64,000 nucleotides of DNA, taken from assembly GCA_965226585.1 (NCBI GenBank), contig OZ245366.1, forward strand, positions 335,298-399,297. The letters are read 5' to 3'. This stretch comes from Thermodesulfobacteriota bacterium. Lineage in GTDB: Bacteria > Desulfobacterota_D > UBA1144 > Nemesobacterales > Mycalebacteriaceae. Position 1 is the stretch's first letter. Every line of letters begins with the position of its first letter. Of the stretch, positions 35,125-62,485 are shown one piece after another. The notes beneath the pieces are model-generated. The model saw only the letters and a list, made by a program, of their open reading frames with translations. It had not been told where the DNA came from and made no database searches. The translations under genes were made by a program, and so were the position numbers.

Positions 35125-35149
35125 TATTCGACCTGATGACCAAGAAAAA

Positions 35150-35178
35150 TTGACACTTTTCAGGCAGTTAGGTATAGA
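35150..35178 (+). promoter_or_regulatory. sigma70-like promoter (TTGACA-17nt-TATAGA) upstream of the Panacea-domain gene
   Basis: ttgacacttttcaggcagttaggtatagaat lies about 55 nt upstream of the ATG at 35230. Confidence 0.35.
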
Positions 35179-35229
35179 ATGTGAGGTAGCGATTGAACTT
35201 ATTGTAAGTATGAAAATAGGGGGGTTGCA

Positions 35230-40768: not shown

Positions 40769-40810
40769 GACTTTTTCGCGCGAAACATAAAACTCAAAAA
40801 GGAGAGGAAA

Positions 40811-42340
40811 ATGCAGGAATCGATAAAAGTTGATGATGTTGGCGAGATACTGAAAAAGAGAATCAGCGGTTACGAACGCAAGTTTGAAACCTCTGAGGTT
40901 GGAACCGTAATCTCAGTTGGGGACGGAATCGCGAGGGTCTACGGTCTTGACAACTCAATGGCGGGGGAACTTGTTGAATTTCCGGGAGGAATCAAAGGGC
41001 TGGTTCTGAACCTTGAGGAAGACAATGTCGGTGTCGCCATTCTCGGTGAAGAGAAAGACATCAAGCAGGGAGATGTTGTCAAGCGCACGGGCGGCATCGC
41101 CCGGATTCCCGTTGGAGACGCCGCGCTCGGAAGAGTTGTGAACTCCCTCGGTGTTCCCGTGGACGGCAAAGGCGATATTCAAACATCCGAAACAAGACCC
41201 CTTGAACTCAAGGCGCCGGGCGTTGTTTTCAGAAAATCCGTTCACGAGCCGCTTCAGACCGGCATAAAAGCCATTGACTCCATGATACCGATAGGCAGAG
41301 GACAGAGGGAACTCATACTGGGCGACCGGCAGACCGGCAAGACCGCCATTGCAGTTGACACGATAATCAACCAGAAGGGCGAAGATGTTCACTGCATTTA
41401 CGTTGCCATCGGTCAGAAAAAATCCAATGTCGTTCAGGTGGTGGACAAGTTGAGAGAACACGGAGCCATGGAGTACACGACCGTTGTTACGGCTTCGGCG
41501 AGCGAGCAGGCGCCGTTTCAGTTTATAGCCCCGTACGCTGGCTGCGCCCTCGGGGAATACTTCAGAGACAGCGGCAGGCACGCCCTTGTTATCTATGACG
41601 ACCTTACAAAGCACGCATGGTCATACAGGCAGCTTTCGCTTCTGCTCAAACGCCCGCCCGGGCGCGAGGCGTATCCGGGAGATGTTTTCTACCTTCATTC
41701 GCGCCTTCTTGAGCGCGCGGCAAAGATGAGAGATGAGGACGGCGGCGGCTCGCTCACCGCTCTTCCCATAATTGAAACTCAGGCGGGAGACGTTTCCGCC
41801 TACATACCGACAAACGTGATTTCCATTACGGACGGTCAGATATACCTTGAAAGCAACCTTTTCTACTCCGGCGTGAGACCCGCGATTAACGTGGGGCTTT
41901 CGGTTTCAAGGGTTGGCGGCTCGGCGCAGATAAAGGCGATGAAAAAAGTCGCCGGAACTCTGAGGCTTGACCTCGCCCAGTACAGAGAGGTTGAGGCTTT
42001 TTCGCAATTCGCCTCAGACCTTGACAAAATCACACAGAATCAGCTCGCGAGGGGAGTCCGGCTTGTTGAGATTCTCAAGCAGGATCAGTTTGTTCCCCTT
42101 CCCGTTGAAAAGCAGGTCATCTCAATATTTGCCGTCACAAAAGGGTATCTGGACGAACACCCCGTTTCCTCCGTGCGCGCCTATGAGAAAGAGCTGTTCG
42201 CGTTCTTTGAAGCCAAATACAACGGGCTTCTGGAAGAGGTAAGAAACAAAAAGGAGATATCCGAAGAACTTGAGCCGCAAGTGATAAAGGCGCTTGATGA
42301 ACTCAAGTTGCAAACGGCTGATTTAACACAGGACGGATAA
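40811..42340 (+). CDS. atpA: F0F1 ATP synthase subunit alpha
   Basis: 509 aa. Walker [10 protein letters not shown] and the conserved alpha signature are present. Confidence 0.97.
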
Positions 42341-42350
42341 GCGACCGCAA

Positions 42351-43226
42351 ATGCCAAGCCTTCAACAGATAAACACGAAGATAACGAGCGTGCGCGGCAC
42401 AATGCGCATCATGAGTGCCATGAAGCTTATCGCGGCGGTGAAACTGCAGAGAGCCCAGTCGCTTCTGAAGGCGCACCGCGACTACGTTTCCGCCTACACG
42501 AAAATTTCATCAGGCGTTCTCGCCACCTGCGAGCCCGACTCGCATCCGCTCCTTTTCCGTCCCGAAGAGAAAAAGAGGGCGCATGTGGTGTTTCTGACAT
42601 CGGACAGGGGGCTTTGCGGAAACTTCAACAATGTTCTCATAAAGGGTCTTGACGCGATGCTTGAGGAACGCGGGTTTGACAAAGACAACCTGAAGATGAC
42701 TTTCCTCGGAAACAAGGGGAGAAACTTCTTTGCCCCGCGCGGGCTTGCTCAGGGCTCATACTACAGCGGAATAAACGAAAGCAACTACACCGAAGTTTCC
42801 GAAGAGCTTTCAACACTGCTTTCAAGAGAGTTCACCGAAAGGGAGACTGATGAGGTGATTGTGGTTCACAGCAATTTCATTTCCGCCCTTTCAAGGGAAA
42901 CAGTTTTTGACACTTTTCTTCCAATAGAGTTTCCCCCCGACGAGCAAGACCCGGACGACTGCGTGTTTGAGCCTTCAAAGGAGAAAATAGTTGAAGACCT
43001 GATACCGGGATACTTGAGGCTTCGCATGGAGAAAGCGGTTCTGGAATCCCTCACAAGCGAGCACTCGGCGCGCATGACGGCTATGGAAAGCGCCACAAAC
43101 AACGCTGATGAACTTGTAAAAAATCTTACTCTGTTGTTCAACAAAACCAGGCAGGCAATAATAACCACCGAGCTTATGGATATTGTGAACGGAACGGAAG
43201 CTTTAAGAGAAGGAGGAGACGATTAA
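42351..43226 (+). CDS. atpG: F0F1 ATP synthase subunit gamma
   Basis: 291 aa with gamma N-terminal and C-terminal helices (ITKAMKMVAA-like, ELIDIVNG). Confidence 0.95.
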   Translation: MPSLQQINTKITSVRGTMRIMSAMKLIAAVKLQRAQSLLKAHRDYVSAYTKISSGVLATCEPDSHPLLFRPEEKKRAHVVFLTSDRGLCGNFNNVLIKGLDAMLEERGFDKDNLKMTFLGNKGRNFFAPRGLAQGSYYSGINESNYTEVSEELSTLLSREFTERETDEVIVVHSNFISALSRETVFDTFLPIEFPPDEQDPDDCVFEPSKEKIVEDLIPGYLRLRMEKAVLESLTSEHSARMTAMESATNNADELVKNLTLLFNKTRQAIITTELMDIVNGTEALREGGDD

Positions 43227-44630
<1,404 letters not shown>

Positions 44631-44652
44631 CTCGGGAAAAAGGAAAACTGAA

Positions 44653-45051
44653 TTGGCTGACGAACTTACTTTGAAAGTTATCACCCCGGCGGGGCTTGCC
44701 CTTGAAGAACAGGTTGAAACTGTTGTTCTCAAAGGCGAGATGGGCGAGTTCGGCGTTCTTGCCGGGCATGTTCCGATGGTTTCAACCCTCGTTGCCGGAA
44801 CGATGCGCTATGAAAGCGCGAAGGGTGAAGAAAAAACTTTCATCATCCACAGAGGCGTCTCCGAAGTCCGCGAAGACACGGTGACGGTTCTGACCAAAGC
44901 CCTTGAAAGCCCGGGCGATATGAGCGTTTCCGAAGCGGCAAAAGAGGCGGAAGAAATAGAGCAGAGCCTGGAAGACGGCTCTCTTTCCGATGAAGAACAC
45001 AAACGCCTGTCCGGAAGGCTTATGCTTGTCCGCGCCCGCGCGGGAATGTAG
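44653..45051 (+). CDS. atpC: F0F1 ATP synthase subunit epsilon
   Basis: 132 aa with epsilon beta-sandwich plus C-terminal helices. It follows atpD. Confidence 0.9.
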   Translation: MADELTLKVITPAGLALEEQVETVVLKGEMGEFGVLAGHVPMVSTLVAGTMRYESAKGEEKTFIIHRGVSEVREDTVTVLTKALESPGDMSVSEAAKEAEEIEQSLEDGSLSDEEHKRLSGRLMLVRARAGM

Positions 45052-48444: not shown

Positions 48445-49179
48445 TTATTTCTTTTCATACTGTTCAACAAAATACGCAGGTCTTTTTTTGCCTCTGTATG
48501 AAGGGTGAGGACCAACATAAACAGTTCTTTTATTTGTCGATACAAAACTCAATATCTCTTCTTTGCGGTTAAATTCAAGGCTTTGAAAAATAATTATGTC
48601 TGGGTTGAAAATGTTGACTTCTTTAATAAAAAACTCTTGTTCAATGTCTTTTTTGTAATGCTTTCTGTTTTTCCCTCCTGATTTGTAATTTCTGCCTACG
48701 TCAACGAACTTGTAGAAATTTGTCAGGGATATATGGGAAAGAGGATTTTCTTCCGGCAGGCAATCCTTTTTGTTTTTCAATATTTGCTGACAGGTATGTG
48801 TTTTCCCTATTTCATTCCACTTGTTTCCCCAATTCAGATTTTTTTCCAGAAAGTGTAGGGCGGTGAAATAAGTTCCGGCAATGTGCGGGTTGAGGAGATG
48901 AAACTCTTTTTTCTCAATGCTTGAATTTCTCCCGTTAAAATCCTGTATATGTTCTTTCTCATCTTTTCCCTTATCGAGTCCTACAAAAAGAATTGCGGGT
49001 GAATACTTCCCGTAATTTGAACCGATGTACGGATAAGTGGGGAACCTAACTTTCTTACACTTGCGAGTATTTTGATGTGATTCTGTTTTGAGAATCCCCG
49101 TTTTCGGGTCTATTTCCATATCACGGAAAAATTTTCCGTGCGTTTCTTTCAATTCTCTTTTTAATCTGCCGTTGGACAC
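48445..49179 (-). CDS. low-GC hypothetical protein (possible divergent UDG-superfamily fold; speculative)
   Basis: 244-aa Lys/Asn-rich ORF in an AT-rich stretch. Segments AILFVGLDKG and VGPHPSYRG are faintly reminiscent of UDG motif A and motif B (HPS). No confident family. Confidence 0.5.
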   Translation of the reverse strand: MSNGRLKRELKETHGKFFRDMEIDPKTGILKTESHQNTRKCKKVRFPTYPYIGSNYGKYSPAILFVGLDKGKDEKEHIQDFNGRNSSIEKKEFHLLNPHIAGTYFTALHFLEKNLNWGNKWNEIGKTHTCQQILKNKKDCLPEENPLSHISLTNFYKFVDVGRNYKSGGKNRKHYKKDIEQEFFIKEVNIFNPDIIIFQSLEFNRKEEILSFVSTNKRTVYVGPHPSYRGKKRPAYFVEQYEKK

Positions 49180-50428: not shown

Positions 50429-50869
50429 ATGTCTGCGATGAGAATCATTTTTCAAACGGACGGATACGGAGGGCTTATAGCCCGGCTGTTTCTCGGTGCG
50501 GTTATGCTCCCGCACGGCTTCCAGAAAATTTTTTCCGTGGAGCAAACTATGAACAACTTCACCTCCAAGATGGATTTGCCCTATGTGGTGGCAGTTCTTG
50601 TGATTGCGGGAGAATCCGTTGGCGCGGTGTCGCTGATTATAGGCTTTATGTCGCGCTTCTGCGCTTTATCAATGGGTATCATAATGATAGGCGCGGTACA
50701 CATGTTTCACCTACAACACGGGTTCTTTATGAACTGGAAAAAAGACCTGGACGCCGGACAGGGATATGAATACCACCTGCTCATGATAGGTCTCGCTCTT
50801 GTTGTCGTCGTGTGCGGCGGCGGCAAACTGTCGGTTGACAGGGTTATAGGGCGGATGTCTTCTTCCTGA
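50429..50869 (+). CDS. DoxX-family membrane protein
   Basis: Hydrophobic 4-TM protein with the RLFLGAVMLPHGFQK DoxX signature. The start is chosen at an internal ATG after the upstream stop; the track ORF from 50333 overlaps the hydrolase. Confidence 0.65.
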   Translation: MSAMRIIFQTDGYGGLIARLFLGAVMLPHGFQKIFSVEQTMNNFTSKMDLPYVVAVLVIAGESVGAVSLIIGFMSRFCALSMGIIMIGAVHMFHLQHGFFMNWKKDLDAGQGYEYHLLMIGLALVVVVCGGGKLSVDRVIGRMSSS

Positions 50870-50882
50870 TTTTAGAGTCTCT

Positions 50883-51203
50883 TCAGCCGCTTTCCGTTTG
50901 CAGAGCCCGCTCAAGGTCTCCGCTCTGGAACATCTCTTCGCAAATATCACAGCCGCCTATAAATTTTCCGTCCACGTAAAGTTGCGGAATTGTGGGCCAG
51001 TTTGAAAAATCCTTTATTCCCTGCCGCAGTTTCTCATTTTCCAGCACATCCACCGTCTCGTAGATGATGCCCATGGTGTTGAGTATCTGCACAACCCGTG
51101 CCGAAAAACCGCACTGCGGCATCTCTCTGGTTCCCTTCATATAAAGGAGAACCCTGTTGTTCTCCACTTGCGATTTTATCAATTCTTTTGTTTCTTCAGA
51201 CAT
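50883..51203 (-). CDS. grxD: Grx4-family monothiol glutaredoxin
   Basis: CGFS active-site motif (MPQCGFSARV) and WPTIPQLY...GGCDI motifs. A GGAGG RBS lies upstream of MSEETKE. Confidence 0.9.
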   Translation of the reverse strand: MSEETKELIKSQVENNRVLLYMKGTREMPQCGFSARVVQILNTMGIIYETVDVLENEKLRQGIKDFSNWPTIPQLYVDGKFIGGCDICEEMFQSGDLERALQTESG

Positions 51204-51205
51204 TG

Positions 51206-51445
51206 TTATCCTCCGGTTTTGCTCCACTGTTCGGGCGTGTAGGTCTTTATGGAAAGGGCGTGAATCTCTTCCCTCATCGCGTCTCCAAGGGCGGAGTACA
51301 CAAGTTTGTGCCTGTCAACAGGCGTTTTTCCTTCAAAATCCGCCGAAACCACTATCGCCTCAAAGTGTGATCCGTCGCCGTCAACTTCAACATGGCTCGC
51401 GTCAAGCGATTTTTCTATTGCTGATTTGATGTTTTCCGGGCTCAC
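51206..51445 (-). CDS. bolA: BolA-family protein
   Basis: 79 aa with the BolA core GDGSHFEAIVVSADFEGKTPVDRHKLVY. It sits immediately upstream of grxD on the same strand. Confidence 0.8.
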   Translation of the reverse strand: MSPENIKSAIEKSLDASHVEVDGDGSHFEAIVVSADFEGKTPVDRHKLVYSALGDAMREEIHALSIKTYTPEQWSKTGG

Positions 51446-51501
51446 GGGTGGTATTATCTATACTTGGTACTGTAGTTGTCAAACAGAATGAGAGGTGAAA
51501 T

Positions 51502-51942
51502 ATGCTTGTATCTGAGATAATGAGCGCGGACATAAAAACGGTTTCCGAGGACGCCCTGCTTAAAGATGTGGCAATGGCGATGACCCGCCAAGGTGTCGGC
51601 TGTCTTCCGGTTGTGGACGCCGGAGGGAAACTGACCGGAATAATATCCGAATCTGATTTTGTAGGAACCCTTCGCAATGTCCCGTTCTCAAGAGAAACCG
51701 GACATGTGCTGTTCGGGCAGTGGACAGACGGAGAGGGAATAGTATCGAGTTGCAGGGAGGTGGCGGAGATGAAACTGAAAGATTTTATGAACTCCCATGT
51801 TGTAACCGTCAGCCCGGATGACACGGTGGAAGAGGCCGTTACGAAGATGCTGAAAAACCGCATCCGCCGTATGCCGGTTGTGAAAGACGGCAAACCGGTG
51901 GCGATGTTTTCAAGAAACGATCTTCTCAAGATATTCAAATGA
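51502..51942 (+). CDS. CBS-domain pair protein
   Basis: 146 aa with two CBS motifs (VGCLPVVD...GIISESD and RRMPVV...MFSRNDLL). Confidence 0.75.
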   Translation: MLVSEIMSADIKTVSEDALLKDVAMAMTRQGVGCLPVVDAGGKLTGIISESDFVGTLRNVPFSRETGHVLFGQWTDGEGIVSSCREVAEMKLKDFMNSHVVTVSPDDTVEEAVTKMLKNRIRRMPVVKDGKPVAMFSRNDLLKIFK

Positions 51943-51961
51943 CCGCCGGCGGGAGCCAGTT

Positions 51962-53332
51962 TTGTACCCAAGAGTAGTTATTGCGGGAGAGCGGAGCGGA
52001 TGCGGAAAAACAACCGTTACTCTCGCCCTTATGAGCGTTTTTTCCTCAAAAGGGCTTGCCGTTCAGGGCTTCAAAACGGGTCCGGATTACATAGACACCT
52101 CGCACTACGAGGCGAGAACCGGAAGAAAAGGCAGAAACATAGACCTCTGGATGACCGACCCCGGAGACTGTATTGAGATTTTCCGCAGAAACGCCGCCGG
52201 GCGGATATCCGTAATTGAAGGGGTTATGGGCCTCTATGACGGCGCGTATCCGGATGGCGCGGCAAGCACGGCGCACACCGCCAAACTGCTTGACGCCCCC
52301 GTGATAGTTGTTCTGGACGGCGCGCGGGGCGGCGGCTCCATCGCCGCGACCGCGCTGGGGCTGAAGATGTTTGACGAAGAGGTCAACATCGCCGGTTTCA
52401 TTTTGAACCGCATTTCACCGCGCCGCGCGGCGGAAACGGCAAAGACCGTTGCCTGCCGCACGGGAATACCGTTTCTGGGCTTCCTTCCGCCCGATGACGA
52501 TATGGCGATAAGGTCAAGACATCTGGGACTTGTTCCCGCTTCAGAATCCGCCGCCTGTTCACGGAGAATTGCCTCAGAATCCGCAATAGCGGAAAAATCG
52601 CTTGATATTGAACTGATAGAGAAAATAGCCCGCGCCGCTCCCTCTCCCGGAGAGTCTGCGGGGTCGCTTTATCCTCCCGACCCCCTGCCCCAGCGTGTCC
52701 GCCTCGCGGTTGCGCGTGACAAAGCGTTTTCGTTCTACTACGAAGACTCTCTTGACCTTCTGTCCATGTGGGGATGCGAGGTGGCAGAGTTTTCCCCCGT
52801 TTCAGATGAGAGTCTTCCCCCCGGGGCGGACGCGGTTTTTCTGGGCGGCGGATTTCCCGAACTGTATTGCGGGGAGATTGAGGAGAACGTCTCAATGAGG
52901 CGGGACTTGCTGCGTTTCTGCAATTCGGGCGGCGCGGTTTACGGAGAGTGCGGGGGAATGATGTATCTGGGGCGGAGTGTGACGGATATGAGCGGGCGGA
53001 AATTTGAGATGAGCGGCGTGTTTCCGGCAGAGTTTGAGATGAGAAAAACCTTGCAGTCTCTCGGCTACAGAGAGGTTGTTGCCAGAGCAGACGCGGGCTT
53101 TTTCCGCGCGGGAGACACGGAAAAAGGGCACGAGTTTCACTATTCCGGGTTTTCCCCGTCCGGGGCGGACACGGATTTTTTCAACATAACAAAATCTTCA
53201 GGCGGCTGTTTTGACGGCGGGATGAGTTTCAAAAACACCGTTGCTTCATACGTTCACCTGAACTTTTTGTCGTCCGGCATCGCGGAACTGATACCTCAGA
53301 GGATAAAGCCCGCAAAGGGGGAAACGCTTTGA
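51962..53332 (+). CDS. cbiA: cobyrinate a,c-diamide synthase
   Basis: 456 aa. P-loop AGERSGCGKTT is followed by a C-terminal glutamine amidotransferase domain. Typical CbiA/CobB. Confidence 0.9.
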   Translation: MYPRVVIAGERSGCGKTTVTLALMSVFSSKGLAVQGFKTGPDYIDTSHYEARTGRKGRNIDLWMTDPGDCIEIFRRNAAGRISVIEGVMGLYDGAYPDGAASTAHTAKLLDAPVIVVLDGARGGGSIAATALGLKMFDEEVNIAGFILNRISPRRAAETAKTVACRTGIPFLGFLPPDDDMAIRSRHLGLVPASESAACSRRIASESAIAEKSLDIELIEKIARAAPSPGESAGSLYPPDPLPQRVRLAVARDKAFSFYYEDSLDLLSMWGCEVAEFSPVSDESLPPGADAVFLGGGFPELYCGEIEENVSMRRDLLRFCNSGGAVYGECGGMMYLGRSVTDMSGRKFEMSGVFPAEFEMRKTLQSLGYREVVARADAGFFRAGDTEKGHEFHYSGFSPSGADTDFFNITKSSGGCFDGGMSFKNTVASYVHLNFLSSGIAELIPQRIKPAKGETL

Positions 53333-54396
53333 AACTGTCGTCCCGCGCCGCCGCGCCTTTTCACGGCGGTCTTGATTACGAGGAGATTCGCCTGATGGGG
53401 ATTGACCCCGAAAGTGTGGTTGATTTTTCAAGCAACATAAACCCGTTTTTCCCGTCCTCGCGCCTGCTTGCGGGCGCGTGCGCCGGAGCGTGCGACTATC
53501 CGGATGCCGGATATTCGGAACTGCGCGGGGCGGTAGCAGAGTTTCACGGAGTTGTGCCGGAGCAGGTTTTCGCGGGCAACGGCGCTTCCGAAATAGTTCA
53601 TCTTCTGTGCAGATGTCTTCCTGCGGGCGCGTCCGTTCTGATACCCGTGCCGACTTTTTCAGAATACGAAAGGGCGGCGGTTATCTGCGGAGCGCGGGTG
53701 ATTTTGTGCCCCGCCCCGGATGGCATGCGTTTTGACCCTCAGGCGATAGCGCGCGCCATAAAAGACAGCCGTCCCGACCTTGTTTTTCTGTGCAATCCCA
53801 ACAACCCGACCGGGCTCAACCTCTCCCGCGCCGCCGTTGAAACTGTCGTTTCTTCAGCAAACGGCGCGGTGGTTGTTATAGACGAATCCTACGCTGATTT
53901 TGTGGAAAACCGTGAGGATTATTCCCCCGTTAGCGGGGCTGAAAACGTTGTGATTCTCCGTTCCCTGACAAAATTTTACGGGCTTGCCGGCTTGAGAATC
54001 GGATACGCGGTTTCAAGTCCGCCCGTAGTTGCCGCGCTGAACGGCGTTCGTCCGCCGTGGAATGTGAACTCGGTGGCGGCGGCGGCGGCGGCATCAATTT
54101 TTTCGCTTCCCCGGTCTGTTTGTGACGAAAGCAGGGCGCGTTTGTTCTCGGCAAGAAACCGGCTTGTGAAAGCCCTTGAAGATGCGGGCAAAAAATGCCT
54201 TCCGACAGACACGGGATTTTTTATGGTGGAAACTCCCCACGCGACCGCCGTGAGGGAAAAACTTTTGAGAAAAGGCGTTGCCGTGCGAGACTGTTCATCC
54301 TTCGGGCTTGCTTCCCACATCCGCATCAGCGCGCGTCCGGAGAAAGACTGCGGCGAACTCATCAAGCAGTGGAAGGCGGCAGACCGTGAAGGCTAA
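53329..54396 (+). CDS. cobD: threonine-phosphate decarboxylase (class I/II aminotransferase fold)
   Basis: 355 aa. HGGLD...DFSSNINPF N-terminus is characteristic of CobD. There is a 4-nt overlap with cbiA. Confidence 0.85.
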   Translation: MKLSSRAAAPFHGGLDYEEIRLMGIDPESVVDFSSNINPFFPSSRLLAGACAGACDYPDAGYSELRGAVAEFHGVVPEQVFAGNGASEIVHLLCRCLPAGASVLIPVPTFSEYERAAVICGARVILCPAPDGMRFDPQAIARAIKDSRPDLVFLCNPNNPTGLNLSRAAVETVVSSANGAVVVIDESYADFVENREDYSPVSGAENVVILRSLTKFYGLAGLRIGYAVSSPPVVAALNGVRPPWNVNSVAAAAAASIFSLPRSVCDESRARLFSARNRLVKALEDAGKKCLPTDTGFFMVETPHATAVREKLLRKGVAVRDCSSFGLASHIRISARPEKDCGELIKQWKAADREG

Positions 54397-55891
54397 AACT
54401 TTGATGGTTCAGGGAACCGCCTCCCACGTGGGCAAAAGCGTTATCACAGCCGGTCTGTGCAGGGTTCTCTCTCGCAGGGGTTTTTCGGTCGCCCCTTTCA
54501 AATCGCAGAATATGAGTTTGAACTCGTTTGTAACCGGAGACGGCTCGGAGATTGGAAGGGCGCAAGCAATGCAGGCGGAGGCGGCGGGTGTGCCGGCCCT
54601 TGCCGAGATGAACCCCATCCTTCTCAAACCTCTGAAAGATGACGGCTCGCAGGTGATGGTTCTCGGAAAGTCCGAAGGCAACATGACATTTGCCGAATAC
54701 ATGGATTTTCGTCCCCGCGCTCTTGAGGCGGTGCGTTCATCCCTTGATGTTCTGGCCGGGAAGTTTGATGCGGTTGTGATTGAAGGCGCGGGCTGTGCGG
54801 CGGAGATAAATTTTTCCCGCAGTGAGATAGTCAACATGACGGTTGCGAACCTTGCGGACGCGCCGGTTCTGCTTGTCGGCGACATAGACAGGGGCGGCGT
54901 TTTCGCCTCGCTTGTGGGAACCCTTGAACTGCTTGAAAAAGCGGAAAGGGAAAGGGTGCGGGGGCTGATAATAAACAGGTTCCGGGGAGACGCCGATTTG
55001 CTTGGCGCGGGGCTTGATTTTCTTGAGAAAAAAACCGGAAAGCCGGTTCTGGGCGTTGTGCCTTATATTCGCGGGCTTATGCTTGACGATGAGGATTCTG
55101 TCTGTCTTGAAGATTCCCGGCCGGCCGCCGGGGCGGATTTGAAGGTGTGCGTGCCGAGGCTTCCGCGCATATCAAACTTTACCGACCTGCGTCCGCTTGA
55201 GATGGAGAGCGGCGTTTCCGTTTCATACGCGGGGCGACCCGAAGAGATTGCGGACTCGGACGCGGTTGTGATAGCCGGAAGCAAGGCAACGATGGACGAT
55301 TTGCGGTTTTTCAAAAACAGCGGAATGGCGGACGCGGTTGCAAAAGCATGCTCAAGCGGCGTTCCGGTTATAGGCATATGCGGCGGTTATCAGATGCTGG
55401 GTTCGGTTTTCGCAGACGGGGGAGGGTTTGAGTCTGCTCCCGGAACGGAGAACGGCCTTGGTGTTTTTCCGGCGGAAACGGAGATAAAAGAGGAAAAAAC
55501 CCTCCGGCAGACATCCGCCACGGTTAAAAACGGCGGCGCGATGTTCAGAGGCATTGAGGGCGAGGAGGTGAAGGGATACGAGATTCACATGGGGCAGACG
55601 CGGTTTTCCGGCGGGGTCAAGTCTTTCCTGAGCAAAGCGGACGGATTGTGTGACGGAGCCGTGAATGGCGGGGGAAATGTTTACGGCACATACCTTCACG
55701 GCATTTTTGAGAATGATAACTTGAGGGGTGAGTTTTTGAGATACTTGCGGCAAAAGAAGGGTGCGCCGTGCCGGGAGACGGTAAAATTCACCGAAGAACG
55801 CGAGAAACAGTACGACCTGCTCGCCGACTGTATTGAGGAAAGTTTGGATATGGACGCAGTGATGAGTATTGTTTCGGGGAAGAGTAAGTAG
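54386..55891 (+). CDS. cobQ: cobyric acid synthase
   Basis: LMVQGTASHVGKS P-loop N-terminus plus C-terminal GATase domain. The start is taken as GTG at 54386 overlapping the cobD end; the track ORF from 54278 is an upstream extension. Confidence 0.88.
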   Translation: MKAKTLMVQGTASHVGKSVITAGLCRVLSRRGFSVAPFKSQNMSLNSFVTGDGSEIGRAQAMQAEAAGVPALAEMNPILLKPLKDDGSQVMVLGKSEGNMTFAEYMDFRPRALEAVRSSLDVLAGKFDAVVIEGAGCAAEINFSRSEIVNMTVANLADAPVLLVGDIDRGGVFASLVGTLELLEKAERERVRGLIINRFRGDADLLGAGLDFLEKKTGKPVLGVVPYIRGLMLDDEDSVCLEDSRPAAGADLKVCVPRLPRISNFTDLRPLEMESGVSVSYAGRPEEIADSDAVVIAGSKATMDDLRFFKNSGMADAVAKACSSGVPVIGICGGYQMLGSVFADGGGFESAPGTENGLGVFPAETEIKEEKTLRQTSATVKNGGAMFRGIEGEEVKGYEIHMGQTRFSGGVKSFLSKADGLCDGAVNGGGNVYGTYLHGIFENDNLRGEFLRYLRQKKGAPCRETVKFTEEREKQYDLLADCIEESLDMDAVMSIVSGKSK

Positions 55892-55893
55892 AT

Positions 55894-56625
55894 ATGGACA
55901 AAGTGACGTTTAAGCAGTTTCGCAGTTTTATTCAGTTTTTTGATGGAGAGGAATTAGAAACACCTGTTCAAAAAAAACCTTTTAGAGTTGATGTTGCAGA
56001 AACATATATTTCTTTTACTCCTGAAGTCAGTGGGGAATCAAGAAGTGTTTATTATAAAAATGACATTATAGGGAGCGAAGGAAAAAAGGGTTATTTAGCA
56101 TTTTATAATGAAGGTTGCAGACAAGGCAAGGATTTCCCTCGTAAAAATTATATGGATGTTTCATATTTTATTGCTGTTATGAAAGAATATGAAAAACCTC
56201 AAAATCGTATTTTTCATAAGAGTGAAAATCACAAAAAAACTGAAACACAGTCTCTTGCAATGGCAAGGGTGGGACAAGGTGAATTCAGGAATCAACTTTT
56301 AGCGTATTGGGAGAGTTCCTGTTCAGTTACCGGAGTTAATGATAAAAATTTGTTGCGTGCTTCTCATATCAAACCTTGGAGAGACTCTCAAAACAATGAA
56401 CGGTTGGACAAGTTCAATGGCTTGCTGTTGAATCCAAATCTGGATTTGTTGTTTGACAAAGGATTTATAACTTTTGATGGTAATGGCAAAATTCACATTT
56501 CTAAGCAAATATCAAAAAAGAATCTAGATAGATTAGGCGTTAAGGATTCTATGTCTTTAAGAAGGATTGATGGTGGGCACAAGCATTTCCTCGATTATCA
56601 TAGAGAGAAGGTTTTTCAAAAGTAA
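55894..56625 (+). CDS. HNH endonuclease (HNH_2/PF13391-like C-terminal domain) with unknown N-terminal domain
   Basis: 243 aa, AT-rich. The C-terminus RVGQGEFRNQLLAYWESSCSVTG...LLRASHIKPW...NGLLLNPNLDLLFDKGFITF matches the HNH_2 signature. The gene starts 2 nt after the cobQ stop, and its stop overlaps the cobW ATG. Confidence 0.7.
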   Translation: MDKVTFKQFRSFIQFFDGEELETPVQKKPFRVDVAETYISFTPEVSGESRSVYYKNDIIGSEGKKGYLAFYNEGCRQGKDFPRKNYMDVSYFIAVMKEYEKPQNRIFHKSENHKKTETQSLAMARVGQGEFRNQLLAYWESSCSVTGVNDKNLLRASHIKPWRDSQNNERLDKFNGLLLNPNLDLLFDKGFITFDGNGKIHISKQISKKNLDRLGVKDSMSLRRIDGGHKHFLDYHREKVFQK

Positions 56626-57674
56626 TGCAAACAACACGAAAAATACCCATAACGGTGATAACCGGTTTTCTTGGAGCCGGAAAAACAACCATTGTTCGCA
56701 ACCTTCTCTCGCAGACGGGCGGACGGCGTATAACCGTGATTGTCAACGAGTTTGGAGACATCGGAATAGACGGCGAAATAATCAGGGATTCATGCGGTTG
56801 TGAAGAAGGCGAAATTGTTGAACTGAGCAACGGATGCCTCTGCTGTACGGTTCAGGAGGAATTTCTGCCCACAATGACAAAACTTGTTGAGAGAAAAAAC
56901 GATATTGATCACATCGTGATTGAAACCTCAGGGCTCGCTCTGCCAAAACCCCTTGTCCGTGCCGTTAACTGGCCCGGGCTGAAACCGCATTTTTCCGTTG
57001 ATTCCGTTGTGGCGGTTGTTGATGCGGACGGAATGGCGACCGGGGAAATATGCGACAGAAAAAAAATTCAGTCTCAGCGCGAGGCAGACGACTCCCTTGA
57101 CCACGAAACGCCGATTGAAGAATTGTTTTCAGACCAAGTTTCATGCGCGGATATGGTTGTTTTGAATAAATCCGACCTTGTGGGCGAACAAAAACTGGAT
57201 GAAATTGAAAACCTTTTGAGAGATGAAATGAAAGAGGGCGCGGCGGTTGCGCGGGCGCGGATGGGAAATATTTCCCCCGAAATTCTGCTCGGAATAGGAG
57301 CCGCCGCCGAAGATGACCTTGATCCAAGACGTTCCCATCACGAAGACCATCACGAAAACGGGGGCGACCACGAGCACGACGAGGATATTGATTCCGTTGT
57401 TGTGGAAATTAAATCAGACGTTTCACCTGAAGCCCTTATGAGCGCGCTGAAAAAAACAGCCCGCGAGCATGAGATTTACAGAGTGAAAGGATTTATGAAG
57501 GTTTCGGGCAAGCGGATGAGAATGCTTGTTCAGGGAGTGGGAGAGAGATTTGAGGGGTATTTTGACAGACTCTGGAGAGAGGATGAAACCGCGAGAACCC
57601 GTCTGGTTTTTATCGGAAAAAATCTGTCCCTTCTGAATCTCGGCGAAATTGTGGAAAAAAACCTTTCCCGATAA
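56625..57674 (+). CDS. cobW: CobW/COG0523-family G3E GTPase (metallochaperone)
   Basis: Walker A ITGFLGAGKTT, CxCC metal-binding motif (GCLCC) and a His/Asp-rich stretch HHEDHHENGGDHEHDEDID. Confidence 0.85.
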   Translation: MQTTRKIPITVITGFLGAGKTTIVRNLLSQTGGRRITVIVNEFGDIGIDGEIIRDSCGCEEGEIVELSNGCLCCTVQEEFLPTMTKLVERKNDIDHIVIETSGLALPKPLVRAVNWPGLKPHFSVDSVVAVVDADGMATGEICDRKKIQSQREADDSLDHETPIEELFSDQVSCADMVVLNKSDLVGEQKLDEIENLLRDEMKEGAAVARARMGNISPEILLGIGAAAEDDLDPRRSHHEDHHENGGDHEHDEDIDSVVVEIKSDVSPEALMSALKKTAREHEIYRVKGFMKVSGKRMRMLVQGVGERFEGYFDRLWREDETARTRLVFIGKNLSLLNLGEIVEKNLSR

Positions 57675-57695: not shown

Positions 57696-60600
57696 ATGCA
57701 TCTTATAGCCACCATACCGGGCGGATGGAATCCCGGAGATGACGGCGGGGTTTTTCTAATAGACCAGACCCCGGGCGACATCGTATTTCTTTCCGCGGCG
57801 GACACGGATATTTTCTGCCTTAATTCCGCCTATCTGAAACTTTCGGACGGCCGGGAACTTCCGTCTCTCAGAATGGCAAACCTTTCGTATTTGAAACGGG
57901 AACTTTCCGTTGATAATTATGTTGAATCGGTCATCCGTTCCGCGCGCCTTGTAGTTGTCAGAATGCTGGGCGGAAAAAATTATCATCCTTATGTTTGCGA
58001 CTCTCTTGAGGCGGAATGCGGAAAAAATAAAACGCCTCTGATTTTTCTCCCCGGAGATGACAGCCCTGATATTGAACTTATGTCTCTCTCCACGGCTCCG
58101 CAGAATTTTGTACAAAAAGCGTTCGGATATTTCTCTTCCGGAGGCCGGAAGAATTTTGAGAATTTTCTCAAACTTGCTCTCAATGATTTTTTTAATGTTT
58201 CTTTTTCCGTGAAAGCCCCCGAAAAAATGCCCGATATTTTTTCACGTGATGTTGCCGGACAAGGCGGCGGGAACTCGAACGCGGCAATTATTGCTTACAG
58301 AAGCCACTACCTTTCCGGAAACCTCTCTCCGGTTGAGACGCTTACGGAAAAACTTTCGGAGCAGGGTTTTAATTCAAAGGCGATTTTTGTGAAAAGCCTC
58401 AGAGAGCGTGAGGATATTGCGGAACTGTCTGAGTTTCTTTCGGGGGGAGAGTTTGACCTGATTTACAACACCACCAGTTTTGCTCTTAAAAGCGCGGCGG
58501 AAAAAAACGGATTTATTTTTGAAGAAAAAGGTGTTCCCGTTCTTCAAACCGTTTTTGCCTCGTGCCCGGAGGAAATGTGGAGGGAAAACCTTTTCGGGCT
58601 TTCCCCCACAGATATGGCGATAAATATAACCCTTCCGGAAATGGACGGGAAAATAGACGCGGGACCCGTCAGTTTCAAACGCGTAGAGGGTAAAGATCCG
58701 GGCACCGATTCAGAAATAGTGAAAAACCACCCCTACACGGACGGATGCCGCCGCGCGGCGGTTTTCGGAAAAAAATGGATAAATCTCCGCGAAAAAAACA
58801 ACGCAGATAAAAAAATAGCCGTCATAATGCCGAACTATCCCTCGCGTGACGGCCGCCTCGCAAACGGCGTTGGGCTTGACACCCCGCAGAGTTGCGTTCG
58901 CATACTGAAAAGTCTTGCCGCCGCGGGTTATTCTCCGGGCGCGGATTTTCCGGACAGCGGAGCCGCCCTTATGGACGAAATATCCCGGAAAATCACGAAC
59001 GACCCGGATTTTATGGACTCAAGGGATTGCGGGGTCTTTTTGCCTTTTGACAGTTTTCTTGACCGCTACCGCAAACTTTCAAAAAAACTTCGCGACCGTC
59101 TCGAACAACACTGGGGCGCTCCCGAAAACGATATTCACATAAAAAACGGCGGATTTCCCCTGCCGGGAATTGTGTTGGACAACATCTTCGTATCAATTCA
59201 GCCTGAGAGGGGATACGGGCAGGACATAAAAGCCGTCTATCATTCGCCCGATATTCCGCCGCCTTACCGCTATCTGGCGTTTTATTTCTGGCTTTTTCAA
59301 AACTTCCGCGCAGACGCGGTTATCCATCTGGGAAAGCACGGAAACCTTGAGTGGCTTCCCGGAAAAAGCGTGGCTCTTGACCCCGAAACGTGCTTTCCGG
59401 CGGCAATTTTTCCTCCGGTTCCCCATTTTTATCCTTTTATCGTCAACGACCCCGGCGAGGGTTCACAGGCGAAAAGGCGGTCGCGCGCCGTGATTATAGA
59501 CCACCTTGTTCCCCCGATGGTGCGAGCTGAATCGTATGGCGACTACCTTCGCCTTGAGCAGTTAATGGATGAGTACTATCAGGCATGGGGGCTCGACCCG
59601 CCCCGCGCGCAGTTTTTGAAGGAGCAAATATCCCGCGCGGTCAGAGAAACATCCCTTTATAAAGACCTCGACTGCGCCCCGGACGATATTGATGAAATCA
59701 TGAACCGTCTGGATGTGTGCCTGTGCGAAATCAAAGAGTCTCAGATACGGGGCGGTTTGCACATTCTGGGGGAGTGTCCGCAGGGCGGGCCGCTTGCCGA
59801 GCTTGTGGTCGCGCTTCACAGAATTCCCTCCGCTTCGGGGCCCGGAATAACGCAGGCGCTCGCGCGGGATATGGGTCTTGACCTTGACCCGCTTGACTGC
59901 GACTACGGCGCAGAGTTCAACCGCTCCGTTTCAGGAAAGGAGTGCAGAACGGCGGGGGCGGCGGTCGCCGCGCTTGAGGAAACGGCAAAGGATTATGTTT
60001 TGCGCGCCATTGAAAGCGGCTCTGCAGAGTGCGCCGGCAGAGATTTTCCGGAATTCCGTCAGGTTCTTGAGTCCGCGCTTTCAACCACGCTTCCAAACCT
60101 GCGGATGTGTTCCGATGAAATCGGCAACCTGCTTCGCGGTCTGGACGGGGGCTACGTTCCTTCCGGACCCTCAGGCGCGCCCACAAGGGGAAAACCGGAA
60201 ATTCTTCCCACCGGCAGAAACTTCCACTCCGTTGACACGAGAGGGCTTCCGACCCGCGCCGCGTACGCGCTTGGGGAAAAAAGCGCGGACTCTCTTGTTG
60301 AAAGACACCTTCAGGAAAACGGCGAATATCCCTCGGCGGTTGGCATATCGGTTTGGGGAACTTCAACAATGCGCACCGGCGCGGACGACATCGCGCAGGC
60401 TTTTGCGCTTATGGGTTTGAGACCCGTCTGGCAGGGGGAAAGCGGAAGAGTTGTGGATTTTGAGGCTCTTTCGCTGAACGAACTGCAAAGGCCCAGAGTG
60501 GACGTTACGCTCAGAATTTCGGGGTTTTTCAGAGACGCTTTCCCTGACCTCATTTCTCTTTTCAATGCGGCGGTTGAAAAAATTGCCGCGATGGATGATG

Positions 60601-61412
60601 AGCCTGAAAACCTGAACCCCGTGAGGCGGCGGCACTTGCTTGAAAAAACCGAATGGGTGAAGAAAGGGATTGATGAAGAAACCGCGCGGAAACGCTCTCT
60701 CTACAGGGTTTTCGGTTCAAAACCCGGCTCCTACGGCGCGGGGCTTCAATCCGCGATAGATTCAAAAAACTGGAAGACGCCCGAAGATTTGGCGATGATA
60801 TACGTGAACTGGAGCGGCTACGCGTACGGAAAAGACGGACCCAGTTCCGCCGCCGAAACTTACCGCCGCCGCCTCGCGGGCATGGATGTTGTAATTCAAA
60901 ATCAGGACAACCGTGAGCACGATATTCTGGATTCCGATGACTACTACCAGTTTCACGGCGGAATGGCGAATGCGGCGCGCGCGGAAAAGGGTGAGATGCC
61001 CGAAGTGTATTTCGGCGACCACTCAAAACCGGAAACACCGAAAATAAAAACCCTGAAGGAGGAAATCGTCAGGGTTTACCGCTCTCGTGTTGTAAATCCG
61101 AAGTGGATTGAGGCGATGAGGCGGCACGGATATAAAGGTGCTTTTGAGATGGCGGCGACCGTTGACTACCTGTTCGGCTATGACGCCACCACGGGGGTTG
61201 TGGACGATTTTATCTACGACGGCGTGGCGCAGGCGTATCTTTTTGACGGCGACAACTTTGATTTTCTCAAGAAAAACAACCCTCGCGCCGCGGTTGAGAT
61301 GGCGGAGAGAATGCTCGAAGCGGCTCAGCGCGGGATGTGGGAAAACCCCGGAGAAAAAACGCTTGAAAAACTGCGCTCGGTGTTTACCGAAGCCGAAGCC
61401 GTGACGGAATAA
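57696..61412 (+). CDS. cobN: cobaltochelatase subunit CobN
   Basis: 1238 aa, CobN/Mg-chelatase H family. Its position after cobW supports a cobalt chelatase role. Confidence 0.88.
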   Translation: MHLIATIPGGWNPGDDGGVFLIDQTPGDIVFLSAADTDIFCLNSAYLKLSDGRELPSLRMANLSYLKRELSVDNYVESVIRSARLVVVRMLGGKNYHPYVCDSLEAECGKNKTPLIFLPGDDSPDIELMSLSTAPQNFVQKAFGYFSSGGRKNFENFLKLALNDFFNVSFSVKAPEKMPDIFSRDVAGQGGGNSNAAIIAYRSHYLSGNLSPVETLTEKLSEQGFNSKAIFVKSLREREDIAELSEFLSGGEFDLIYNTTSFALKSAAEKNGFIFEEKGVPVLQTVFASCPEEMWRENLFGLSPTDMAINITLPEMDGKIDAGPVSFKRVEGKDPGTDSEIVKNHPYTDGCRRAAVFGKKWINLREKNNADKKIAVIMPNYPSRDGRLANGVGLDTPQSCVRILKSLAAAGYSPGADFPDSGAALMDEISRKITNDPDFMDSRDCGVFLPFDSFLDRYRKLSKKLRDRLEQHWGAPENDIHIKNGGFPLPGIVLDNIFVSIQPERGYGQDIKAVYHSPDIPPPYRYLAFYFWLFQNFRADAVIHLGKHGNLEWLPGKSVALDPETCFPAAIFPPVPHFYPFIVNDPGEGSQAKRRSRAVIIDHLVPPMVRAESYGDYLRLEQLMDEYYQAWGLDPPRAQFLKEQISRAVRETSLYKDLDCAPDDIDEIMNRLDVCLCEIKESQIRGGLHILGECPQGGPLAELVVALHRIPSASGPGITQALARDMGLDLDPLDCDYGAEFNRSVSGKECRTAGAAVAALEETAKDYVLRAIESGSAECAGRDFPEFRQVLESALSTTLPNLRMCSDEIGNLLRGLDGGYVPSGPSGAPTRGKPEILPTGRNFHSVDTRGLPTRAAYALGEKSADSLVERHLQENGEYPSAVGISVWGTSTMRTGADDIAQAFALMGLRPVWQGESGRVVDFEALSLNELQRPRVDVTLRISGFFRDAFPDLISLFNAAVEKIAAMDDEPENLNPVRRRHLLEKTEWVKKGIDEETARKRSLYRVFGSKPGSYGAGLQSAIDSKNWKTPEDLAMIYVNWSGYAYGKDGPSSAAETYRRRLAGMDVVIQNQDNREHDILDSDDYYQFHGGMANAARAEKGEMPEVYFGDHSKPETPKIKTLKEEIVRVYRSRVVNPKWIEAMRRHGYKGAFEMAATVDYLFGYDATTGVVDDFIYDGVAQAYLFDGDNFDFLKKNNPRAAVEMAERMLEAAQRGMWENPGEKTLEKLRSVFTEAEAVTE

Positions 61413-62401: not shown

Positions 62402-62485
<84 letters not shown>

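What the first reader, a model, noticed from the sequence alone, without database searches (positions are those of the whole stretch)
55880..56640. AT-rich HNH_2-type endonuclease gene inserted seamlessly inside the cobalamin operon (cobQ | HNH | cobW)
A 243-aa ORF begins 2 nt after the cobQ stop, and its TAA stop overlaps the cobW ATG (TAATG). It is therefore fully embedded in the B12 biosynthesis transcription unit, yet its codon composition is conspicuously AT-rich. The C-terminal 120 aa carry the HNH_2 signature (GQGEFRNQLLAYWESSCSVTG...ASHIKPW...NGLLLNPNLDLLFDKGFITF). The N-terminal 120 aa are an unrecognised domain, possibly a DNA-binding or modified-base-reading module as in type IV restriction enzymes. 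A selfish or defensive nuclease riding inside an essential biosynthetic operon is an unusual arrangement.
Basis: partly seen in the sequence, partly recalled or inferred. Interest (0 to 1): 0.55.

Follow-up and report, generated by a model that had tools for sequence, protein, structure and literature searches.

The report
Lone HNH nuclease wedged into B12 operon
A small, AT-rich gene for a restriction-type HNH DNA-cutting enzyme with a previously undescribed front domain sits seamlessly between two vitamin-B12 genes, at a junction that is empty, holds this nuclease, or holds a different gene in related bacteria, so it is most likely a tiny swappable defence slot rather than part of B12 synthesis.

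Summary
A 243-aa ORF (55894-56625, +) starts 2 nt after the cobQ stop. Its TAA overlaps the cobW ATG, and its GC is 0.34 against about 0.55 in the flanks.

The C-terminal half is an HNH_2 nuclease closely related to the HNH domain of VcaM4I, a solved type IV restriction enzyme. All four VcaM4I active-site residues are conserved.

The junction is polymorphic:
- Two near-identical genomes (98-99% nt) have either an empty 23-nt spacer or a different AT-rich 289-aa gene.
- Two more distant relatives are empty.
- Two others (flanks 60-84% aa identical) carry a 55-58% identical, equally AT-rich HNH homologue in the same slot, with the same TAATGCA right junction.

So this is neither a strain-specific novelty nor a B12 factor. 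It is the recurrent cargo of a 745-nt islet inside the operon. The best reading is a solitary type IV-like defence nuclease with a new sensor domain. A homing-like selfish nuclease is the main rival. Nothing has been tested biochemically.

The parts
55883..56627 (+). The variable islet: the stretch with no counterpart in the empty-site relative L001.
   Evidence: BLASTN of L001 against the window is 98% identical up to 55882 and again from 56628. For L002 the limits are 55876 and 56639.
55894..56625 (+). HNH nuclease gene, 243 aa, GC 0.34, GC3 0.28.
   Evidence: ORF listing, composition, and an identical protein on record as P0001.
55894..56223 (+). N-terminal domain, about aa 1-110. It is uncharacterised and has the conserved signature G18, L21-x-T23, F30, (F/Y)-T42-P43, S90-Y91, A94.
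56224..56319 (+). Predicted helical linker, about aa 111-142, in the position of the auto-inhibitory linker helix of VcaM4I.
   Evidence: The AF2 full-length model predicts a helix at 115-142, but with low confidence. The linker role in VcaM4I comes from PMC7897488. Applying it here is inference.
56320..56622 (+). HNH_2 catalytic domain, about aa 143-243, with H158, N175, D184 and D188.
   Evidence: Pfam HNH_2. PADLOC HNH PDLC04132, E 2.3e-27. 6yex VcaM4I aligns over aa 114-243 at E 1.4e-26. The four residues are invariant in the family and equal VcaM4I H224, N241, D250 and D254.
55883..55893 (+). Left junction: islet-specific last two cobQ codons (AGT AAG), the stop TAG, and a 2-nt spacer AT.
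   Evidence: L004 has the same TAGATATG.
56623..56627 (+). Right junction TAATG: the HNH stop overlaps the cobW start, which implies translational coupling.
   Evidence: The motif TAATGCA is conserved in L004 and L085.
54386..55891 (+). cobQ (cobyric acid synthase), the upstream core flank.
   Evidence: NCBIfam NF001989, 622 bits.
56625..57674 (+). cobW (cobalt metallochaperone GTPase), the downstream core flank.
   Evidence: TIGR02475, 449.7 bits.

Best explanation
The gene encodes a solitary, methyltransferase-less restriction-type nuclease built like the modular type IV (modification-dependent) enzymes. It has a C-terminal VcaM4I-type HNH_2 cutting domain, which probably dimerises and is held in check by the preceding helical linker. 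It has an N-terminal ~110-aa domain of a hitherto undescribed family, which would act as the DNA-feature sensor; which modification or structure it senses is unknown.

The gene is the single cargo of a 745-nt variable islet at the cobQ|cobW junction. Alleles (empty, HNH, other cargo) are most likely exchanged within populations by homologous recombination through the conserved cob flanks.

Because the islet lies inside an operon, the cargo is promoter-less and terminator-less. It would be transcribed with the cob genes. Its TAATG stop/start overlap would keep cobW, and cobN behind it, translated.

What is shown: the architecture, the conserved catalytic residues, the rarity and novelty of the N domain, the junction polymorphism, and the absence of mobile-element scars. 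What is inferred: nuclease activity, dependence on a DNA modification, a defence role, co-transcription, and exchange by recombination.
For: **Nuclease domain.**
- HNH_2 scores above the Pfam cutoff.
- PADLOC HNH and restriction-enzyme models match at E 2e-27 to 3e-13.
- There is a weak NCBIfam hit to 'phosphorothioated DNA-binding restriction endonuclease'.
- VcaM4I (6yex) aligns over aa 114-243 at E 1.4e-26, with H224/N241/D250/D254 matching H158/N175/D184/D188. These residues are invariant in the family.

**Modular architecture.** More than 800 relatives share only the HNH half and carry different N-termini. This is the pattern described for modification-dependent restriction enzymes (PMC6765204, PMC11037411).

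**No partner gene.** The 745-nt islet has no methyltransferase or other gene. A solitary nuclease must therefore spare host DNA by itself.

**Polymorphic junction.**
- Empty in L001, L005 and L094.
- A different AT-rich cargo in L002.
- An HNH homologue in L004 and L085.

**Genome habit.** Two of the window's three other AT-rich stretches carry defence-type or defence-like genes wedged between core genes: a Tsp45I restriction-modification pair plus SocA/Panacea, and a sacsin/NOV_C protein. The third holds a UDG-like gene.

**Domain context.** A stand-alone N-domain homologue lies near GmrSD_N and DUF4145 genes.

**No mobile-element signs.** There are no terminal inverted repeats, no target duplication, and no room for an attC site. 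This matches 'core defence hotspots' exchanged through conserved flanks (PMC10250203).
Against: - The N domain matches no known modification reader. Modification dependence is therefore assumed from the nuclease's relatives, not shown.
- The L002 alternative cargo is an uncharacterised family with only weak nuclease or defence similarity: Pfam PDDEXK_2 at E 0.03 and PADLOC PDC-S11 at E 4e-4. The claim that this is a defence slot rests mainly on the HNH gene itself.
- Occupancy of the identical slot in three lineages that differ by 16-40% at the amino-acid level in the flanks, with GC3 staying at 0.26-0.36, is also what a site-specific selfish element would produce.
- Known defence hotspots are usually intergenic islands of kilobases. 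They are not single genes translationally coupled inside a biosynthetic operon.
Confidence: 0.5

Rival explanations
1. It is a free-standing, homing-like selfish endonuclease. The nuclease would recognise the uninterrupted cobQ|cobW junction, or a nearby conserved cob sequence, in genomes that lack it. It would cut there, and its gene would be copied in by repair from an HNH-bearing allele. This would explain why the same slot is occupied in several lineages while close relatives are empty.
For: - The same slot and the same right junction (TAATGCA) are seen in the window, L004 and L085. The TAGATATG left junction is shared by the window and L004.
- Distribution is patchy, down to strains 98% identical.
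- The empty alleles share spacer motifs: ATACAGG in L001 and L094, and AGGATTTTCTTCTG / AGGAGTTTTTTCTG in L001 and L005. They are therefore old alleles, not fresh deletions, and both states persist.
- The gene stays AT-rich in all three lineages.
- Long-form relatives also sit just downstream of atpC in two related genomes.
Against: - The nuclease domain is of the HNH_2 / VcaM4I restriction type. No homing-type modules (NUMOD, AP2, HNH_3, LAGLIDADG, GIY-YIG) are detected. That homing HNH enzymes belong to other subfamilies is my own knowledge, not a test done here.
- No divergent co-conversion tract flanks the insert. SNP density against L001 is a uniform ~2% to within about 10 nt of the junction.
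- Other family members sit at unrelated loci (L098, L099, L086).
- The N domain was not found in IMG/VR viral contigs.
- The three cob-slot copies are 42-47% diverged, in the same rank order as their hosts. This fits long residence and gives no sign of recent spread.
Confidence: 0.22
2. It is an old, vertically inherited passenger. A single ancient insertion has been carried along with the cob operon and kept or lost by drift. The gene may now have little function, or may have been recruited for a housekeeping DNA transaction. The patchiness would reflect allele replacement by recombination, not selection for defence or selfish spread.
For: - HNH identities (58, 55 and 53%) follow the same rank order as CobW identities (84, 79 and 77%). 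They are not far below CobD and CobB (60-69%).
- The junction architecture is conserved across lineages.
Against: - All three copies are intact, with invariant catalytic and N-domain residues, which implies purifying selection on an active nuclease.
- GC3 of 0.26-0.36 has not moved towards the host value of ~0.6 despite the implied age.
- The slot holds a different cargo in L002.
Confidence: 0.15
3. It is a cobalamin-pathway accessory or regulatory protein, co-opted because it sits between cobQ and cobW.
For: Only the position: it is co-oriented with the cob genes and translationally coupled to cobW.
Against: - It is absent from genomes with 97-99% identical Cob proteins (L001) and from L005 and L094.
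- Its composition is foreign.
- The domain content is a restriction-type nuclease.
- A literature search found no paper that mentions an HNH endonuclease together with cobW.
Confidence: 0.02

Closest known systems
VcaM4I (PDB 6yex), the EVE-HNH type IV modification-dependent restriction endonuclease; also TagI and the TspA15I group
   Same: - The C-terminal HNH_2 domain aligns over 130 residues at E 1.4e-26 and roughly 50% identity.
- The active-site residues H224, N241, D250 and D254 are conserved.
- The overall layout is the same: sensor domain, helical linker, then HNH.
- Both are single-gene systems with no methyltransferase.
[quoted passage not shown]
   Same: The architecture is modular, with an HNH_2-class nuclease fused to an interchangeable DNA-feature sensor (PMC11037411). 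There is a weak NCBIfam hit to the PT-DNA restriction model over the HNH part.
   Different: No winged-helix or sulphur-binding domain is detected in the 243-aa protein. The 340-360-aa long forms of the family have an extra ~110-aa N-terminal extension whose fold I did not determine.
Core defence hotspots (e.g. cDHS1 and cDHS2 of Pseudomonas aeruginosa)
   Same: The content is variable and compositionally foreign, flanked by invariant core genes. There are no mobile-element hallmarks. Different strains carry different cargo or none, and exchange through conserved flanks has been proposed (PMC10250203).
   Different: The slot here is tiny (0-0.9 kb, one gene). It lies inside an operon between two co-transcribed biosynthetic genes. 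The cargo replaces the last codons of cobQ and the first codons of cobW, and is translationally coupled to cobW.
Free-standing homing endonucleases of phages (e.g. T4 mob/seg genes, I-HmuI-type HNH)
   Same: It is a small AT-rich nuclease gene wedged between conserved genes. It occupies the same slot in divergent genomes, with patchy presence.
   Different: It is chromosomal rather than phage-borne. The HNH subfamily is different (HNH_2). No NUMOD or AP2 DNA-binding modules are present, no co-conversion tract is seen, and no relatives were found in IMG/VR.

Membership tests
HNH_2 (PF13391) / VcaM4I-type HNH nuclease domain | Profile match above the curated threshold | tested here: met
   Pfam HNH_2 scores 47.7 bits against a cutoff of 21, E 1.4e-12, over aa 143-195. 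PADLOC HNH PDLC04132 matches at E 2.3e-27.
HNH_2 (PF13391) / VcaM4I-type HNH nuclease domain | Catalytic His (water activator), structural Asn, and the two metal-ligand Asp residues defined in VcaM4I (H224, N241, D250, D254) | tested here: met
   In the alignment they correspond to H158, N175, D184 and D188. All four are invariant in 11 family members. The residue roles come from PMC7897488.
HNH_2 (PF13391) / VcaM4I-type HNH nuclease domain | Metal-dependent DNA cleavage | not testable with these tools
   This needs purified protein.
Type IV (modification-dependent) restriction endonucleases | Single polypeptide with a separate sensor domain and nuclease domain, and no cognate methyltransferase | tested here: met
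   The layout has two domains. The 745-nt islet holds only this gene.
Type IV (modification-dependent) restriction endonucleases | Sensor domain belongs to a recognised modified-DNA reader class (SRA, EVE/PUA/YTH, DUF3427, SBD, wH, NEco) | tested here: not met
Type IV (modification-dependent) restriction endonucleases | Cleaves modified but not unmodified DNA, and restricts phages with modified genomes | not testable with these tools
   Requires a biochemical assay or a plaque assay.
Free-standing homing endonucleases | Same insertion slot between conserved genes in divergent genomes, with sporadic distribution | tested here: met
   The window, L004 and L085 are occupied. L001, L005 and L094 are empty.
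Free-standing homing endonucleases | Nuclease and DNA-binding modules of homing type (HNH PF01844 / HNH_3, NUMOD, AP2, LAGLIDADG, GIY-YIG) | tested here: not met
   The only Pfam hit is HNH_2.
Free-standing homing endonucleases | Co-conversion of flanking markers around the insert | tested here: not met
   SNP density against L001 is uniform, 1-8 per 200 nt on the left flank and 2-4 per 200 nt in the first 1 kb on the right, right up to the junction. This is inconclusive if the donor belonged to the same species.
Free-standing homing endonucleases | Cleavage of the insert-less allele | not testable with these tools
   Needs an in vitro assay on the L001-type junction.
Transposon, IS or integron cassette | Terminal inverted repeats, target-site duplication, attC, or a transposase or integrase gene | tested here: not met
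   There are no terminal repeats at the islet ends. The stop codon overlaps the cobW ATG, leaving no room for an attC site. The islet has no other ORF.
Cobalamin biosynthesis accessory protein | Conserved presence in orthologous cob clusters | tested here: not met
   It is absent from L001 (Cob proteins 98-99% identical), L005 and L094.

The most novel reading that the evidence does not exclude
The ~110-aa N-terminal domain is a new class of DNA-feature reader. It would recognise either a DNA modification that no known reader covers, or a specific sequence. In the sequence-specific case, this family would be a chromosomal, operon-embedded, homing-like HNH element. It would target the cobQ|cobW junction (and, in long-form relatives, the region after atpC) and preserve host operon function by supplying its own stop and start codons for the neighbouring genes.
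Probability: 0.2. Interest if true: 0.75.

Novelty: new variant of a known kind. Interest (0 to 1): 0.45.

Why it matters
If the N-terminal domain is a DNA-modification sensor, it adds a new reader fold to the modular type IV restriction toolkit. That toolkit has repeatedly yielded reagents for epigenetic mapping. The family is small (about a dozen clusters), so it is tractable.

The locus also shows that variable, defence-type cargo can be accommodated inside a biosynthetic operon with single-nucleotide economy. The cargo rewrites the end of cobQ and the start of cobW and couples its own translation to cobW. The same slot stays polymorphic (empty, HNH, other) across strain-level to family-level divergence.

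This widens the search space for defence genes, because island-based searches would miss single genes hidden in core operons. It also offers a clean natural system, three alleles on a 98-99% identical background, for asking whether such slots are maintained by phage-driven balancing selection or by selfish homing.

Tried and rejected
**Known reader folds for the N domain: rejected.**
- No Pfam hit on 14 domain sequences.
- A profile search against PDB sequences found nothing.
- Foldseek against afdb50 was not available.

**Other explanations: rejected.**
- B12 accessory factor. Ruled out by the empty-site relatives.
- Transposon, IS or integron cassette. No terminal repeats and no room for attC.
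- Phage origin of the family. The N domain is absent from IMG/VR, and only 2 phage records match, over the HNH half only.
- Riboswitch control. No cobalamin riboswitch, or any Rfam family other than one tRNA, was found in the window at gathering thresholds.
- Recent import from a divergent donor. No SNP cluster lies next to the junction.

**Searches that yielded little.**
- The exact-sequence look-up of the window's own protein returned no contig.
- The CobW scan of GTDB genomes gave only one close relative (L005); the rest were cyanobacteria or Bacteroidota at ~50% identity.
- The metagenome DNA-pattern scan gave one relative (L094) and six unrelated COG0523 genes.
- Most long-form contexts are on contigs of 1-3 kb and say little.

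**L002 cargo.** It belongs to a very large uncharacterised family; some members carry DUF5655. Only weak PD-(D/E)XK and PDC-S11 similarity was found, so I do not call it a defence gene.

Full report
**1. Observation.**
- The window contains an ATG-initiated ORF at 55894..56625 (+), 243 aa.
- The sequence shows the cobQ stop TAG at 55889-55891, two bases (AT), then ATG. At the other end, AAG TAATG CAA puts the nuclease's TAA over the ATG of the next gene at 56625.
- The gene's GC is 0.342 (GC1 0.43, GC2 0.31, GC3 0.28). cobQ is 0.55 with GC3 0.62. The window mean for 600-nt windows is 0.515 with sd 0.053.
NCBIfam equivalog models call cobyrinic acid a,c-diamide synthase (51962-53332), a CobD-type aminotransferase (53329-54396, best match TIGR01140, just below its cutoff), cobyric acid synthase CobQ (54386-55891), CobW (56625-57674) and CobN (57696-61412).
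- Spacing along this run is -4, -11, +2, -1 and +21 nt. The terminator scan puts no terminator-like site at the cobQ-HNH-cobW junctions.
- No cobalamin riboswitch was detected anywhere in the window.

**2. The protein.**

*Nuclease half.*
- Pfam finds only HNH_2, at aa 143-195 with E 1.4e-12.
- PADLOC HNH and restriction-enzyme models match aa 96-242 at E 2.3e-27.
- The only solved relative by sequence is VcaM4I (6yex), an EVE-HNH type IV enzyme. It aligns over aa 114-243 at E 1.4e-26.
- The VcaM4I paper defines H224 (water activator), N241, D250 and D254 (metal ligands) and shows that alanine variants lose activity (PMC7897488).
- In the alignment these are H158, N175, D184 and D188 of the window protein. 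All four are invariant across the family. The nuclease half is therefore very probably active.

*N-terminal half.*
- It has no Pfam hit, even when 14 homologous domain sequences are scanned.
- It has no PDB sequence hit by profile.
- An AlphaFold2 model of the domain alone, built on the 14-sequence alignment, is confident: pLDDT 89.9, pTM 0.82. The topology is a helix, a four-stranded meander, then three to four helices.

*Rarity of the N domain.*
- An exhaustive phmmer run of aa 1-115 against 1.84 billion representatives finds 11 proteins.
- By contrast, more than 800 proteins share only the HNH half, with other N-termini.
- Most relatives are 340-360 aa and carry a further ~110-aa N-terminal extension. 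Four are short forms of 243-255 aa (the window protein, P0003, P0006 and P0124).
- A profile search also recovers stand-alone versions of the domain, 88-107 aa (P0132-P0138). They share the signature G, L-x-T, F, (F/Y)-T-P, S-Y, A.
- One stand-alone copy lies in a run of small ORFs that includes GmrSD_N (DUF262) and DUF4145 genes.

**3. The locus in relatives.** This is the most informative evidence.

| Locus | Flank similarity to the window | State of the cobQ/cobW junction |
|---|---|---|
| L001 (GCA_051010995.1, a Thermodesulfobacteriota MAG) | 98.1% nt; Cob proteins 98-99% | Empty: 23-nt spacer between the cobQ stop and the cobW start |
| L002 (a Logan assembly) | 98.8-99.1% nt | A different 289-aa, GC 0.39 gene, again with its stop overlapping the cobW start (TGATG) |
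| L005 | CobW 86% aa | Empty |
| L094 | CobW 83% aa | Empty |
| L004 | Cob proteins 67-79% aa | 255-aa homologue, 55% identical, GC 0.38 |
| L085 | Cob proteins 67-84% aa | 251-aa homologue, 58% identical, GC 0.33 |

- L001 and L002 belong to the same 90% CobW cluster as the window.
- The right junction TAATGCA is the same in the window, L004 and L085. The left junction TAGATATG is shared by the window and L004.
- The empty spacers are related to one another. ATACAGG occurs in L001 and L094. AGGATTTTCTTCTG in L001 matches AGGAGTTTTTTCTG in L005. The empty state is therefore an old allele, not a fresh deletion.
- The islet boundaries lie just inside the flanking genes. Each allele has its own last cobQ codons (GKSK*, GKGA*, LIRVK*) and its own first cobW codons (MQTTRK, MSQTTRK, MVEKTNQRFAHSVAK).
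- SNP density between the window and L001 is a uniform ~2% up to about 10 nt from the junction on both sides. There is no sign of import from a divergent donor.
- No terminal inverted repeats or target duplications flank the islet.

**4. Wider context.**
- The window has three other AT-rich stretches among core genes:
  - a 1033-aa sacsin/NOV_C protein (25697-28798, minus strand);
  - a Tsp45I restriction enzyme with its N6/N4 methyltransferase, plus a SocA/Panacea gene (33200-35760);
  - a UDG-like gene (48445-49179, minus strand).
- At the UDG-like position, L001 and L002 carry a DNA methyltransferase instead, and L004 has nothing.
- In a more distant genome (L003), a long-form family member sits two genes after atpC. 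The atp operon there is itself interrupted by several inserted ORFs, including a methyltransferase. In the related L088, another long form directly follows atpC.
- Other members sit at unrelated loci.
- HNH-half relatives occur on 151 plasmids and 2 phages.
- The N domain was not found in IMG/VR.

**5. Interpretation.**

*Best explanation (about 0.5): a solitary type IV-like restriction nuclease.*
- A new sensor domain would gate a VcaM4I-type HNH nuclease.
- The gene is carried as the single cargo of a miniature, polymorphic core hotspot. Hotspots of this kind are the cDHS sites described in Pseudomonas (PMC10250203). This one is squeezed into an operon and made compatible with it by translational coupling.
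- The logic is as follows:
  - The nuclease looks active.
  - It has no methyltransferase partner in the cassette.
  - Its nuclease domain belongs to the clade whose characterised members are modification-dependent (PMC6765204, PMC7897488, PMC11037411).
  - The genome repeatedly stores defence-type or defence-like genes in the same AT-rich, wedged-in fashion.
- Activity, substrate, co-transcription and the recombinational exchange of alleles are all inferred.

*Main rival (about 0.2): a homing-like selfish nuclease.*
- Evidence for it:
  - Three lineages share the identical slot.
  - Both occupied and empty alleles persist.
  - The gene keeps its low GC3.
- Evidence against it:
  - The nuclease belongs to the wrong HNH subfamily.
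  - No homing-type DNA-binding modules are present.
  - No co-conversion tract is seen.
  - The family is not found in viral contigs.
  - The HNH divergences (58, 55 and 53%) rank like the host's CobW divergences (84, 79 and 77%), which suggests long residence rather than recent spread.

*Other readings.*
- A neutral, vertically inherited passenger (about 0.15) fits that rank order. It does not fit the intact, constrained sequence, the unameliorated composition, or the alternative cargo in L002.
- A B12 role is effectively excluded.

**6. Novelty and score.**
- The nuclease domain and the sensor-plus-HNH design are known.
- Three things are new:
  - The sensor domain has no family, no fold match, and only about a dozen clusters.
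  - The genomic habit is unusual: a one-gene, operon-internal slot, translationally coupled to cobW, with three alleles.
  - The same slot is occupied in three lineages whose flanking Cob proteins are only 60-86% identical.
- I classify it as a new variant of a known kind.
- Interest is 0.45. It is a solid lead for enzymologists of modification-dependent nucleases and a neat population-genetic system. It is not a categorical surprise, and its function is untested.

Noticed in passing
L002 7132-8001 (the same cobQ|cobW slot in a genome 99% identical to the window): A different cargo occupies the slot: a 289-aa, GC 0.39 protein whose TGA overlaps the cobW ATG. It belongs to a very large uncharacterised family (more than 7,900 hits, ~285-310 aa, some carrying DUF5655 / PF18899). 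Its N-terminus has only weak similarity to PD-(D/E)XK (E 0.03) and to PADLOC PDC-S11 (E 4e-4). In this allele CobW has an extended N-terminus, MVEKTNQRFAHSVAK.
   Followed up: partly
window 48445-49179 (minus strand), compared with L001 1-1290, L002 1-411 and L004 630-1303: There is a second variable spot, between the DUF924 gene and ruvX. The window has an AT-rich (GC ~0.37) 243-aa UDG-superfamily gene on the minus strand. L001 and L002 have a 581-599-aa N6_N4 DNA methyltransferase there. L004 has nothing. Homology between the window and L001/L002 starts exactly at the ruvX start (49210).
   Followed up: partly
window 25697-28798 (minus strand): An AT-rich (GC 0.33-0.40) 1033-aa ORF with a sacsin-type ATP-binding domain and a NOV_C domain is wedged between ispDF (24479-25669) and a metallo-beta-lactamase-fold gene. 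It looks like another foreign, possibly defence-related islet.
   Followed up: no
window 33200-35760: A Tsp45I-family type II restriction enzyme (E 3e-118) is followed by an N6_N4 methyltransferase and a SocA/Panacea-domain gene. All three are AT-rich and lie between a GshA-type glutamate-cysteine ligase gene and a ClC channel gene.
   Followed up: no
L003 1-9789 and L088 3-1155: In a more distant genome the ATP synthase operon is interrupted by inserted ORFs. A 217-aa unknown lies between atpA and atpG. A 186-aa unknown, a DUF6338 protein and an N6_N4 methyltransferase lie between atpG and atpD. A long-form (352-aa) member of the HNH family sits between two M48 peptidase genes just after atpC. 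In the related contig L088, another long form directly follows atpC with a 4-nt gap. The window's own atp operon (39693-45051) is uninterrupted.
   Followed up: partly
window 55847-55862 and 55891-55906: A 16-nt near-repeat (14/16 matching) occurs twice. GATATGGACGCAGTGA lies inside the end of cobQ, and GATATGGACAAAGTGA spans the cobQ stop and the HNH start, 44 nt apart. L004 shows a weaker version (12/16). This could be microhomology left from the original insertion, or chance; about 0.3 such pairs are expected in 1.5 kb.
   Followed up: partly
window 50800-52000 and the whole window: No cobalamin riboswitch was found upstream of, or within, the cob cluster at Rfam gathering thresholds. The only Rfam hit in 64 kb is a tRNA at 62402-62485 (minus strand).
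   Followed up: partly
L089 593-895 and its neighbours; P0132-P0138: Stand-alone 88-107-aa versions of the nuclease's N-terminal domain exist. One lies in a run of small unknown ORFs together with GmrSD_N (DUF262) and DUF4145 genes. This hints that the domain can also work as a separate subunit in defence-type loci.
   Followed up: partly
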